DNA from: a virus
Taxonomy: Duplodnaviria; Heunggongvirae; Uroviricota; Caudoviricetes
Reading direction: 5' to 3' (one strand)
DNA: 64,000 nucleotides
IMG/VR virus record: IMGVR_UViG_2541047712_000002
In this document: positions 45,001 to 48,000 of the stretch, piece by piece
Layout: every line of letters begins with the position of its first letter
Position numbering within the stretch: the first letter of the stretch is position 1
Position numbers: made by a program

Positions 45001-48000
45001 CCTAAAATCGCTTCAGGGTAGAGCTGAGTTTGTAGTGGTAGATGCTGGTGGCTTCGACTCCGAAATTCAGCGACAAGCGATGCTGATGGCTGACGTTATC
45101 ATTATCCCGCTGCGTCCTAAGCGTCGTGATTTGAAATCTTTACGTGACATCGATCCTATTATCGACAATGTTCGCAATGTAAACGATAAAGTGAAGGTCC
45201 GCGCGGTCATGAACCAGTGCCCGGCTTTGCCATCACAAGTGTCTCGCATTCTGGCGGCTAAAGAGATTGTTGAGACGTTTGGAATCGAGTCTGCGCCAGT
45301 CAATCTATATAACCGCAACGTCTATGATGATGCGGAAGAGTCTGGTCGTTCTATCTTTGAAATGACCGGTAGCGAGCGCGACAAAAAGGCGGAAGCCGAG
45401 TTTGAAGAATTTGTAGATTATCTGTTGAGTCTGGAGGAAGAAGAATAATGTCCATGAAAATGGGTGACCTAGCAAAGCGCAAAGAGCCTGATGCACCGGC
45501 TAAGAACACAACTCCTTTGCGCCAACCAGTCAGACCACAAGGACGCCCGACTCGTGGCAAAGAGAAAATTAAAAGCCGCACTATGTCACTGGAAGACGAA
45601 TACTTCGAGCTTCTGGAAATGATGAAGTTTATCCCTCGTTTCGAGAAGTTCACCCGCTCTGATGTGATTCGTGCTGCTATTTTCCATCTGGCAGAGAAGT
45701 CACCGCAGGAAATCGAGGACATCGTAAAGCTGAACGAGGCGATCACAGCTGCCGATGTCACGATGCGTACCGATGAAATTAAACGCGAGTTGATGAAGAA
45801 AGGTTAATAATGTGGGCTGTCTAGCCCACATTATTTTAATTAAAGTGGAGTGATAATTATGCATTCGTTAGTATTTGCATTTAAAAACATACTCAAGAAT
45901 GTTATAAACATACTAGGGATGTTAAATATTTTTTTGTCTGTGAGGGTGAGGAGAAAAGATATAAAAGATAAATTAAAGGAACTTAACAAAGAAAAAGAAC
46001 AATTAAAAAGCGAAGAAATTATTATTGATTTATACAAGAAAAAACTCGCATCTAGCAAGGGGAAAGCTAATGATAAAATCAAAGGAAAAATAATTCACTA
46101 TATTATTGCTAGAGAGTTGGGGAATGATCCTGATAATGAAGATTTGCGACATAATCTTTTTACAAAGATAAAAGAATCAGAAGAACAGGTTGAAGTTCTG
46201 GTTCATCAAAGAGAAGTAAGTGAGCAGGCGAACAAAAAAGAAACGGTTGTCAATTTGTTTTTATTGTATGAAAAAAATAAATTGTTTAAAGCTAAGGGGT
46301 TGGCTGTGTTTCTTATAGTTATAAACTTAATTATAGTTGCGACTCTCGATCTTCCAGCTTGGTCATTGATTATAAGTTTTTTTATTCTCTCTTTGATTAT
46401 GTTGAAAGATCAGATACTTACTATTCGTGTCTCTAAAGGATATTTTGGCACAAGTGCGTATGAAGCGGTTCAATTGCTTAAATTCATCAGAGAAAATTCA
46501 GACAAATTTGACTCAGATGATAATGACGGTAGCCCACGACGGATATTGAATCCGAAGGGAACAACAAAAAAATCAGACAACCTATTCGATAAAGGGTGGC
46601 AAAATGTTTGACCTTGACGCCATCACTAAGTTCTTAAATCAGTGTTTTGATCTACTTTTGCTCAAGCAGCCTTTAAGAACTGTTTTCGGAATACTGATTG
46701 GTTTCATTATTTTTGTTTTTGTTTACACGTTTAGGTTTGCGATAGCTCAAGATTTTTATGAAATAGATGGTGTGCATTACGCTGCATGTTTCGTCATCGG
46801 TGTTTTAGTTGTTCACACAAGAACATTTTTTGACGTTATCAAGGGCACCGCAGTTGATGAAGAAATAGATAGTATGATCAGAGTTATTACGAAGCAGCCA
46901 CACCTATCTAACCATCAAAAAAACATAATGATTGCTGAAATACTTCAAAAAGAAATTGCAGCCATAAGTCAAAAGAGATTGGATAAAGTTGCACAAGAAA
47001 TAACGGAGAAAAAGACAACTGATTAATTTAATTACCTGTTTCTGTATATAAATAATAAGTAACTTATTAAATATATATACGGAAGCAGGTCTTTTAAAAG
47101 ACACCCACCAGAACAACTCCCTTCCGTTTCCACTTCCAAAAACTGCCACCAGTCGCTATCATCCGCTCATTGTGATAAGTAAGTAACTACCTACCAGGTG
47201 AGCCACATGAGCCAAATCTTTTTCGATACCATCGACAACAACCAGTACGACTTCATGACAGAGTGGAATACCGCTGTTATGGACAAGTGGGTTGCTGAAA
47301 ACATTGGTTTGTCGCGCTGTAAAGACGAGGCTGAACTCTTCGAGACGAAGTGGTTTGATTATCGCGACATGCATCCTCTCATGGCCACCTGTCTTTTTAC
47401 GGAGGCATACAAACGTCAGTACTCAAATATCATGCTGACGCACGGTCGCGAACACTTTGAAACAGCTCCGTTCACCACCGGGTTAAAACGTCTGCCTTAT
47501 CAGGAGTTGTCGACTGCCAACAAAACGTCGCTATGGAAAGCACGCCAGTTTGCGGATCGCTATTGCTGCTCATACGACTACTTTATCTCCACCGTTCTTT
47601 CCGCAGCTGCACGACGGCTGTGGGACAAGCTGCCGCGCCCACAGCATTTGTGGCAGCCAGAACTGATTGAGATATTTGAAGAGAAATTAGCCAGACGCGC
47701 AACAACCCGTCTGGATGACTCTCTTGTTAGCTTTAAGCATATGGGAGACATGCAGTTCAACCCGATTCAGGAAAGCTATTTTGAGTGGATTCTGGAGCGT
47801 TTGCGCACCATCCCTCGCAGCAAGCGCATACGCGCAATTTTCTCCGCTATCTGGCTAATGGAAATCGTTCCAGAGCGCCTTATTTCCGCCCACTTTCCAG
47901 AAGAACTGGAAGAAGCACGGCGGTTTATTGATCCCCTATCTAATTAACTAATACTAGAAAACAATTTGTTTAAAAAACAAAGGAAAGCACATGACCGAAC

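What the first reader, a model, noticed from the sequence alone, without database searches (positions are those of the whole stretch)
45850..47026. Very AT-rich two-gene membrane-protein cassette between partition and replication genes
The two overlapping ORFs (253 and 140 aa) have far lower GC than their neighbours, carry TM helices (the first also a K/E-rich coiled coil), and are flanked by conserved regulatory repeats (class A palindrome upstream of parA, 48-bp repeat downstream). This is the usual signature of a moron such as a superinfection-exclusion or small defence module.
Basis: inference. Interest (0 to 1): 0.55.

Follow-up and report, generated by a model that had tools for sequence, protein, structure and literature searches.

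The report
Uncharacterised two-gene membrane module in defence hotspot
Two overlapping, AT-rich genes for small inner-membrane proteins sit as swappable cargo in a defence-gene hotspot of an SSU5-type E. coli phage-plasmid; they belong to an unannotated, always-paired gene family found in temperate phages from Enterobacteria to Vibrio and Bacillus, and are most likely a new phage-exclusion module, although no experiment exists yet.

Summary
Two overlapping ORFs (P1 45859-46611, 250 aa; P2 46604-47026, 140 aa) have GC 0.33 against 0.47-0.49 in their neighbours, and each encodes a transmembrane hairpin. The window is an SSU5/pHCM2-type phage-plasmid. The pair fills a sharply bounded slot between the stop codon of the parA-parB-like operon and a conserved ~57-bp terminator-like palindrome.

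In relatives the same slot holds PD-T4-3, a KAP NTPase (PDC-S49) or a DUF2971 gene (PDC-S31). Only about 10% of SSU5-type plasmids carry a P1/P2 pair.

P1 and P2 have no Pfam, NCBIfam, PADLOC or PDB match. An exhaustive profile search nevertheless found 362 cluster representatives related to P1. In 31 of 31 loci examined, a P2 homologue follows and overlaps the P1-like gene. These loci include:
- P2-like myoviruses (gpS/gpV slot);
- Vibrio prophages (downstream of cI, beside SIR2 or RES genes);
- a Bacillus element (beside a PD-T4-6-like kinase).

One member fuses the P1 core to EAD1, an effector-recruiting domain.

Best reading: a lysogen-expressed, two-component inner-membrane phage-exclusion module, either abortive infection or entry block. 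This is inferred and untested. Partition, replication and lysis roles are disfavoured.

The parts
44714..44743 (.). It is a probable operator/promoter element of the transcription unit that the cassette ends.
   Evidence: family D1, 7 copies, another at 47941-47970 upstream of dnaB
44780..45448 (+). parA (ParA/MipZ-type ATPase), first gene of the operon. Context, conserved backbone.
   Evidence: MipZ 7e-14, AAA_31, CbiA; 82-100% identical in relatives
45448..45807 (+). 119-aa parB-like partner gene (phrog_5111, no Pfam). Its stop codon is the left border of the variable slot.
   Evidence: alignment of five cargo variants diverges right after TAA 45805-45807
45806..45835 (+). 13-bp-stem hairpin followed by UUUUAAUU. 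It belongs to this cassette allele and is not conserved with other cargos. Possible attenuator or RNA-stability element between the parB-like gene and P1.
   Evidence: (-18.5 kcal/mol, z -4.1)
45859..46611 (+). P1, 250 aa (phrog_22270). It has a weakly hydrophobic N-terminal helix, a fast-evolving charged helical region (30-130) and a conserved basic segment NKKETVVNLFLL. A TM hairpin (146-185) follows, then a conserved ~60-aa cytoplasmic C-terminal domain with motif RVxKGYFG..A.EA (R190, G194, G197, E202 invariant in 42 diverse members).
46604..47026 (+). P2, 140 aa (phrog_17322). It has a short N-terminus, a TM hairpin (about 26-48 and 58-76, with GxxxG in TM1 and invariant H58-Y59), an acidic GTAxDEE segment and a C-terminal amphipathic helix. 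It overlaps P1 by 8 nt, suggesting translational coupling.
47034..47090 (.). ~57-bp GC-clamped, AT-centred palindrome followed by UCUUUU. It is the conserved right border of the slot in all SSU5-type relatives, is terminator-like, and has a second copy at about 16379-16436.
   Evidence: D6; -25.5 kcal/mol, z -7.4
47198..47947 (+). orf249 (phrog_2500, unknown function), the first conserved backbone gene to the right of the slot, followed by DnaB-like helicase and primase. Context.

Best explanation
P1 and P2 form a horizontally mobile, two-subunit inner-membrane module. Temperate elements carry it as interchangeable cargo and express it in the lysogenic (plasmid-prophage) state. In this window expression would be by read-through of the parAB operon, up to the shared terminator palindrome.

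Both proteins insert as N-in/C-in hairpins and are probably made in fixed proportion through translational coupling.

The most likely function is exclusion of other phages at the cytoplasmic membrane. My preferred mechanism is abortive-infection-like:
- the fast-evolving N-terminal part of P1 acts as the specificity/sensor region;
- the conserved hairpin plus C-terminal domain of P1, held in check or completed by P2, permeabilises or depolarises the membrane when an infecting phage is sensed.

A non-lethal block of DNA entry is the close second.

Shown: anatomy, topology pattern, strict pairing, accessory distribution, hotspot location and the EAD1 fusion.
Inferred: expression route, P1-P2 complex formation, any anti-phage activity and the membrane-permeabilising step.
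For: **1. The slot is a defence hotspot.** With identical flanks, relatives carry PD-T4-3 (1.6e-23), PDC-S49/KAP NTPase (3.7e-22) or PDC-S31/DUF2971 (3e-41). SSU5 itself stacks the pair with a DUF2971 gene. A system labelled '2971' (DS-45) is listed as validated in PMC13092281; its homology to these DUF2971 genes was not tested.

**2. The pair is accessory and patchy.** It occurs in 73 of about 726 SSU5-type plasmids and 7 of 5426 complete E. coli genomes.

**3. Alleles in the slot are deeply divergent.** P1 alleles are 33-42% identical while flanking genes are 82-97% identical. The P1 N-terminal part is the most variable (26% against 55-60% in the C-terminal parts).

**4. P1 and P2 are strictly paired and overlapping.** This holds in 28/28 loci plus 3 more, across Enterobacteria, Vibrio and Bacillus.

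**5. Independent contexts are also accessory or defence sites.**
- the gpS/gpV slot of P2-like myoviruses;
- downstream of and co-oriented with cI in Vibrio prophages, next to SIR2 (2e-65 to Aga_SIR2) or RES genes;
- next to a PD-T4-6-like kinase and an integrase in Bacillus.

**6. One member (P0069) fuses EAD1 to the P1 hairpin and core (3.5e-8).** EAD1 'primarily recruit[s] other effectors' to conflict systems (PMC7159879).

**7. Topology fits a membrane complex.** Basic residues flank both hairpins and the loops are nearly uncharged or acidic. Of 121 full-length members, 118 have the hairpin directly before the RVxxGxFG motif.

**8. In the 214-aa alleles P1 starts 1-2 nt after the parB-like stop,** so it is part of the parAB operon.

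**9. Validated analogues with similar architecture exist:** DS-13 'TMO1' and DS-34 'CITO'.
Against: - There is no experimental phenotype for any family member. All are annotated 'hypothetical' and no paper mentions them.
- No homology was found to any validated defence, Sie, toxin-antitoxin or holin family.
- Guilt by location is probabilistic. Hotspots also carry anti-defence, toxin-antitoxin and unrelated cargo. The neighbouring hotspot holds a GNAT toxin-antitoxin pair, and the window also carries accessory fimbriae.
- The EAD1 fusion is a single case among the 52 family members scanned against Pfam. No EAD1 partner was found in that locus.
- Structure models are low-confidence (pLDDT 55.6 and 59.5). 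Neither pore formation nor a P1-P2 complex has structural support.
- No promoter was identified for the cassette.
Confidence: 0.5

Rival explanations
1. Superinfection exclusion without cell death. The P1-P2 membrane complex blocks genome entry (or periplasm-to-cytoplasm transfer) of incoming phages, as T4 Imm, P22 SieA or HK97 gp15 do.
For: Both proteins are small inner-membrane proteins with tiny periplasmic loops. They are expressed with lysogeny or maintenance genes (parAB operon, cI operon). Allelic diversification in one slot fits an arms race with related phages.
Against: The family spans phyla and very different phage types, whereas classical Sie proteins are narrow. The periplasmic loops are very short (about 7 and 12 residues), leaving little surface to meet an injection apparatus. 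The EAD1 fusion points to a recruited effector rather than a passive block.
Confidence: 0.2
2. Addiction or stabilisation module. P1 is a membrane toxin and P2 its antidote, so loss of the phage-plasmid or prophage kills or arrests the cell. Any anti-phage effect would be secondary.
For: The organisation resembles a toxin-antitoxin pair: two small overlapping genes on mobile elements. The pair lies in the plasmid-maintenance region, next to another hotspot that holds a GNAT/DUF1778 toxin-antitoxin pair.
Against: About 90% of SSU5-type plasmids do without it and carry nuclease or NTPase defence genes in its place. It also occurs inside late-gene regions of integrated P2-like phages, where addiction makes less sense. 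No known toxin or antitoxin domain was found.
Confidence: 0.13
3. Phage-side function at the membrane: a lysis-timing or holin-antiholin-like accessory, or an anti-defence factor that protects the element itself.
For: The proteins have holin-like size and a TM-hairpin architecture. Lysis genes lie within 3 kb upstream both here (endolysin 42522-43241, Rz) and in P2-like phages (lysB/lysC-R-S). Hotspots can hold anti-defence genes (PMC13586616).
Against: The Vibrio and Bacillus contexts are next to cI or an integrase, not lysis genes. No holin family match was found in Pfam or PHROGs. The lysis cassette of the element is already complete and conserved, while the pair is optional.
Confidence: 0.08
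4. Accessory of partition or replication, for example a membrane anchor for the ParA system or the replisome.
For: The pair lies between parAB and the replication genes. In some alleles it is translationally abutted to the parB-like gene.
Against: It is absent from about 90% of elements with the same parAB and replication genes. It is present in integrated prophages and elements with no par genes. No homology to partition or replication proteins was found.
Confidence: 0.03

Closest known systems
Lambda RexA/RexB (prophage abortive-infection pair)
   Same: Both are two-gene modules expressed in the lysogen. In Vibrio prophages the pair lies downstream of and co-oriented with cI, as rexAB does in lambda (textbook knowledge). 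Both have a membrane component thought to collapse membrane potential, and both are optional cargo of a temperate phage.
   Different: No sequence relationship was found (no Pfam RexA/RexB hit). RexA is cytoplasmic and RexB has four TM segments. Here both proteins are TM hairpins with small cytoplasmic domains.
SLATT / DUF4231-type 2TM effectors of CBASS, retron and NTPase conflict systems, including Hailong HalA (HalA comparison from memory)
   Same: Both have a TM hairpin joined to a small cytoplasmic helical domain. Both associate with conflict systems. In one member the P1 core is coupled to EAD1, the same adaptor used to recruit effectors.
   Different: Only 3 of 42 members give sub-threshold DUF4231 hits (best E 0.053), so homology is not demonstrated. 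No nucleotide-signal generator is encoded nearby. The obligatory second membrane protein P2 has no counterpart.
DS-13 'TMO1' (DefensePredictor, PMC13092281)
   Same: It is a validated E. coli defence system made of two small, overlapping genes that both encode membrane proteins with helical cytoplasmic parts.
   Different: hhalign probability is below 1% to either P1 or P2. Its TM segments are N-terminal single or double helices, not a central or C-terminal hairpin followed by the RVxKGYFG domain.
DS-34 'CITO' / AbiZ-like protein downstream of prophage cI (PMC13092281)
   Same: Charged helical N-terminal half, then a TM pair, then a short cytoplasmic tail. It is encoded right after a CI repressor, as P1 is in Vibrio prophages.
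   Different: It is a single effector gene with no P2-like partner, and hhalign probability is 0.1%.
Classical membrane Sie proteins (T4 Imm/Sp, P22 SieA, HK97 gp15)
   Same: They are small inner-membrane proteins encoded by phages that protect the host from other phages (established knowledge, not tested here).
   Different: They are narrowly distributed single proteins. No homology was detected in Pfam or PHROGs. The P1/P2 family is cross-phylum and strictly two-gene.

Membership tests
Moron / hotspot cargo (operational class) | Presence/absence polymorphism between otherwise collinear relatives, with sharp junctions | tested here: met
Moron / hotspot cargo (operational class) | Base composition unlike the flanking genome | tested here: met
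   GC 0.31-0.385 against 0.45-0.565 in all enterobacterial contexts. The contrast is weaker in Vibrio and Bacillus.
Moron / hotspot cargo (operational class) | Own promoter and terminator (autonomous transcription unit) | tested here: inconclusive
   A terminator-like palindrome lies downstream but is part of the conserved backbone. No promoter above chance was found. The 214-aa alleles abut the parB-like gene.
Known anti-phage defence systems (PADLOC-DB v2.0.0) | Significant match of either protein to a system model | tested here: not met
   Best hits are E 0.0012 (PDC-M02B, over the charged helix) and 0.01. Newer DefenseFinder/PADLOC releases could not be run.
Defence-island / hotspot association | Recurrent co-location with, or replacement by, recognised defence genes in independent lineages | tested here: met
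   Slot alternatives are PD-T4-3, PDC-S49 and PDC-S31. Neighbours are PDC-S31, a SIR2 gene and a PD-T4-6-like kinase. putAbiC lies about 6 kb upstream in L035.
SLATT / DUF4231 2TM effectors | Profile match to a SLATT-clan Pfam family | tested here: not met
   0/42 at E<=0.01. 3/42 at E 0.05-1 for DUF4231.
Lambda RexAB | Homology to RexA and RexB | tested here: not met
   No Pfam, PHROG or PADLOC hit
DS-13 TMO1 and DS-34 CITO (DefensePredictor) | Homology to the validated proteins | tested here: not met
   hhalign probabilities are 0.1-0.3%
Partition/replication accessory proteins | Homology to known Par/Rep accessory proteins, or co-inheritance with the par/rep backbone | tested here: not met
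   No family hit. Present in about 10% of backbones and in par-less prophages.
Holins / lysis regulators | Match to a holin or antiholin family, and linkage to an endolysin | tested here: not met
   No Pfam/PHROG functional hit. Linkage to lysis genes is absent in the Vibrio and Bacillus loci.
Type II toxin-antitoxin pair | Toxicity of one partner neutralised by the other | not testable with these tools
   Only the two-gene overlapping layout is seen

The most novel reading that the evidence does not exclude
P1/P2 is a self-contained, previously unnamed two-component membrane immune system of temperate phages and phage-plasmids, conserved from Enterobacteria to Vibrio and Bacillus. In this reading the hypervariable N-terminal part of P1 recognises an infecting phage, and the conserved RVxKGYFG domain plus the two TM hairpins (P1+P2) form a gated membrane lesion. 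It would also mark the parB-to-terminator slot of SSU5-type elements as a defined, minable defence hotspot.
Probability: 0.35. Interest if true: 0.6.

Novelty: new variant of a known kind. Interest (0 to 1): 0.5.

Why it matters
SSU5/pHCM2-type phage-plasmids are common in clinical E. coli, Shigella, Salmonella and Klebsiella. What they do for their hosts is largely unknown.

Three points follow from this work:
- It defines a precise cargo slot (parB-like stop codon to terminator palindrome) that exchanges validated and candidate defence genes. Unknown cargo in that slot can now be prioritised.
- The P1/P2 pair is such an unknown. It is a cross-phylum, strictly paired, unannotated membrane-protein family (362 cluster representatives). 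If it is anti-phage, it adds a minimal all-membrane system with a new conserved domain to the defence catalogue.
- It could help explain plasmid-level protection reported for an SSU5-like Klebsiella plasmid (PMC8969562).

It is also cheap to test, since the insert is only 1.2 kb.

Tried and rejected
- **Structure.** AlphaFold2 models of P1 (7-sequence alignment) and P2 (4-sequence alignment) were all-helical but low-confidence (pLDDT 55.6 and 59.5). Foldseek against the PDB gave nothing below E 0.65.
- **Sequence libraries.** Pfam, NCBIfam, PADLOC and PDB gave no informative hit. Relaxed Pfam scanning gave only sub-threshold DUF4191/DUF4231 hits.
- **Locus scans.** The 42-sequence alignment was too diverse for back-translated scanning. 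The narrower alignment found only one locus in genome contigs and 19 in viral contigs.
- **EAD1 partner.** No EAD1-bearing partner was found in locus L010 by BLAST.
- **Newer system names.** I checked whether DefenseFinder's DS-33, DS-37 or HEC-06, reported in Salmonella SSU5 elements, are this pair. DS-33 is a GNAT pair and DS-37 is a single gene linked to AbiH. HEC-06 was not resolved.
- **DefensePredictor tables.** Neither P1/P2 motifs nor their accessions occur in the parts of the tables that are held.
- **Kp1604 plasmid p2 (CP085480).** It has a published defence phenotype but is not in the collections, so the presence of the pair could not be checked.
- **Promoters.** Promoter scans were not above chance.
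- **Rejected readings.** A partition accessory role is rejected on distribution. A lysis cassette role is rejected on context inconsistency. A chance ORF is rejected on conservation in 5.8 billion clusters and the PHROG families.
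Full report
**1. What is there**

The window is an SSU5/pHCM2-type phage-plasmid of E. coli. The region 44700-47300 is 100% identical to plasmids such as CP090273 and NZ_AP023200, and its flanks match phage SSU5, Cyrano and PhiR41_1.

P1 most likely starts at ATG 45859 (250 aa), not GTG 45850. Three things support this: a GGAG lies 8 nt upstream, RefSeq annotates this start, and all homologues begin MHS.... P2 (46604-47026, 140 aa) starts 8 nt inside P1, behind a GGGTGG stretch.

The cassette has GC 0.326 (GC3 about 0.30) against 0.47-0.49 (GC3 0.49-0.57) in parA, the parB-like gene, orf249 and dnaB. It is about 2.5 sd below the window mean.

Hydropathy gives one TM hairpin in P1 (141-189) and one in P2 (17-49, 60-79). 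The P1 region 30-130 is 45% charged and predicted helical, but its heptad signal is weak. The P1 N-terminal helix is borderline hydrophobic (KD 1.46), whereas 100 of 121 full-length family members have a clear extra N-terminal TM.

**2. The slot**

I aligned five relatives with different cargo. Similarity stops exactly at the stop codon of the 119-aa parB-like gene (45805-45807). It resumes at a ~57-bp GC-clamped, AT-centred palindrome at 47034-47090.

That palindrome folds at -25.5 kcal/mol (z -7.4) and is followed by UCUUUU. A second copy lies at about 16.4 kb, between two co-oriented ORFs.

One copy lies upstream of parA and one upstream of dnaB.

The cassette is therefore the last cargo of the parAB transcription unit. 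The window allele has its own hairpin (45806-45835, -18.5 kcal/mol) and no room for a promoter before P1. In the 214-aa alleles, including SSU5_035, P1 starts 1-2 nt after the parB-like stop.

**3. What else occupies the slot**

- O104:H4-type plasmids carry a 564-aa KAP NTPase (PDC-S49, 3.7e-22).
- PhiR41_1 carries a minus-strand GIY-YIG protein (PD-T4-3, 1.6e-23).
- Cyrano carries a DUF2971 protein (PDC-S31, 3e-41).
- SSU5 itself carries a divergent P1/P2 pair plus a DUF2971 gene.

A system labelled '2971' is listed as validated system DS-45 in the DefensePredictor supplement; I did not test its homology to these genes. PD-T4-3 is reported in SSU5-type elements by an independent survey. The slot is therefore a defence hotspot.

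The pair is optional:
- 73 plasmids encode a P2-like protein, against about 726 with the neighbouring backbone gene at >=80% identity.
- The window allele occurs in 7 of 5426 complete E. coli genomes, always on plasmids.

**4. The proteins and their family**

Neither protein matches Pfam, NCBIfam, PADLOC or any PDB sequence. Both fall in PHROGs of unknown function.

Word-indexed searches found only 8 and 4 clusters. An exhaustive profile search of 1.84 billion representatives found 362 relatives of P1 (41 at E<=1e-10). They share:
- a basic segment (K..TVV.L.L);
- a TM hairpin;
- a ~60-residue C-terminal domain with the motif K[DE]..L.YR[VI].KG[YF]FG.N..EA..L..FI..N.D.[ID]D, in which R190, G194, G197 and E202 are invariant in 42 diverse members.

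The N-terminal parts vary freely. In 118 of 121 full-length members the hairpin lies directly before the motif.

Basic residues flank both hairpins and the loops are nearly uncharged (P1) or acidic (P2). This indicates N-in/C-in topology, with the conserved domains in the cytoplasm.

Members come from Enterobacteria, Vibrio, Bacillus and marine metagenomes. All are 'hypothetical'.

**5. Strict pairing**

In every locus examined, the P1-like gene is followed by an overlapping (4-11 nt) gene of 134-146 aa that is a significant P2 homologue. This held in 28 of 28 loci, then in 3 more. Many of the 28 are near-duplicates. They still represent at least seven distinct allele/context classes.

**6. 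Contexts outside SSU5-type elements**

- In P2-like myoviruses the pair lies between tail-completion gene S and baseplate gene V. Relatives have other cargo or none there.
- In two Vibrio P2-like prophages it lies downstream of and co-oriented with the CI repressor. In one it is followed by bPH and SIR2 genes (2e-65 to Aga_SIR2 models) and in the other by a RES-domain gene, followed there by the integrase gene. A putAbiC gene lies about 6 kb upstream in the first prophage.
- In Bacillus it lies between a PD-T4-6-like Ser/Thr kinase (3.6e-33) and an integrase.
- In an element with Prim-Pol and an integrase, the P1 core is fused to an N-terminal EAD1 domain (3.5e-8). According to its describers, EAD1 primarily recruits effectors to NTPase-centred conflict systems (PMC7159879).

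In enterobacterial contexts the cassette is always AT-rich relative to its flanks.

**7. Diversification**

Within SSU5-type backbones whose flanking genes are 82-97% identical, P1 alleles are only 33-42% identical to the window protein. The N-terminal 115 residues diverge most: 26% against 55-60% in the C-terminal parts for the P0008 allele.

**8. Interpretation**

The following together favour a lysogen-expressed phage-exclusion module acting at the inner membrane:
- optional hotspot cargo that is replaceable by defence genes;
- neighbours of defence type in three independent lineages;
- expression with lysogeny or maintenance genes;
- rapid allelic turnover with a hypervariable region;
- an EAD1-fused member;
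- an all-membrane, translationally coupled architecture.

I commit to an abortive-infection-like mechanism as most likely. P1 would act as sensor plus membrane effector, gated or completed by P2. A non-lethal entry block is the close second. Both are inference.

A toxin-antitoxin-like addiction role is possible and not exclusive. Lysis or anti-defence roles are less consistent with the contexts.

**9. Comparison with known systems**

It works like lambda RexAB, SLATT-type 2TM effectors, the validated DS-13 'TMO1' pair and the DS-34 'CITO' protein. It is a member of none:
- no Pfam or PADLOC matches;
- only sub-threshold DUF4231 hits in 3 of 42 members;
- hhalign probabilities below 1% to DS-13 and DS-34 proteins.

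DS-33 and DS-37, reported in Salmonella SSU5 elements, are a GNAT pair and a single gene, not this pair. No paper mentions SSU5_035/036 or the PHROG identifiers.

**10. Limits**

- There is no phenotype and no confident structure (pLDDT 55.6 and 59.5; fold searches empty).
- No promoter is mapped.
- The EAD1 clue is a single case.
- PADLOC here dates from 2023, so a more recent naming of this family cannot be excluded.

**Verdict:** a real, well-delimited accessory cassette. It is a credible but unproven candidate for a new two-component membrane defence or exclusion system. Interest is moderate.

Noticed in passing
window 43663-44500 (- strand): A second variable slot lies just upstream of parA. 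Here it holds a GNAT acetyltransferase toxin plus a DUF1778 antitoxin. Relatives with the same flanks carry other two-gene cargos (127+250 aa in CP090273, 132+258 aa in PhiR41_1, SSU5_031/032). A 'GNAT' two-gene system is listed as validated defence system DS-33 in PMC13092281. Homology to the window genes was not tested.
   Followed up: partly
window 16379-16436 and 47034-47090: A ~57-bp GC-clamped, AT-centred palindrome (33-nt exact core) occurs twice. Each copy folds at about -25.5 kcal/mol (z about -7.4). One copy is the conserved right border of the cargo slot in all SSU5-type relatives. It may be a bidirectional terminator and perhaps a recombination landmark.
   Followed up: partly
window 1207-6244, 44714-44743, 47941-47970: There are seven copies of an AGAAAACAAnTTGTT palindromic motif, two of them just upstream of parA and of the DnaB-like helicase gene. 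It is a probable operator or promoter element of an element-encoded regulator.
   Followed up: no
window ~57400-62700: The lowest-GC block of the window (0.31-0.32) is an accessory chaperone-usher fimbrial operon (PapB/FocB regulator, DUF1120 subunit, chaperone, usher). It is present at full length in only 6 of 666 matching plasmids.
   Followed up: partly
window 7338-7912: Three direct repeats about 270 bp apart each carry the hairpin AAAGCGCCCATAGTGGGCGCT plus a T-rich tail. They look like a tandemly repeated small unit with terminators.
   Followed up: no
window 45448-45807: The 119-aa gene after parA is annotated 'RelE/ParE putative toxin' in the phage Cyrano record. It has no Pfam hit and sits where a centromere-binding ParB/ParG-like partner is expected, so the toxin label looks doubtful.
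   Followed up: no
L033 (SSU5) 3024-4936; L035 10322-12628; L036 10212-11093: The P1/P2 pair is often stacked with other defence-type genes: DUF2971 in SSU5, bPH+SIR2 or RES in Vibrio prophages. These could be independent systems or functional partners.
   Followed up: partly
P0104 (family member, no locus fetched): One P1-family member appears, by eye only, to carry a FecR/anti-sigma-like N-terminal domain in place of the charged helical region. This hints that the N-terminal part is a swappable input domain.
   Followed up: no
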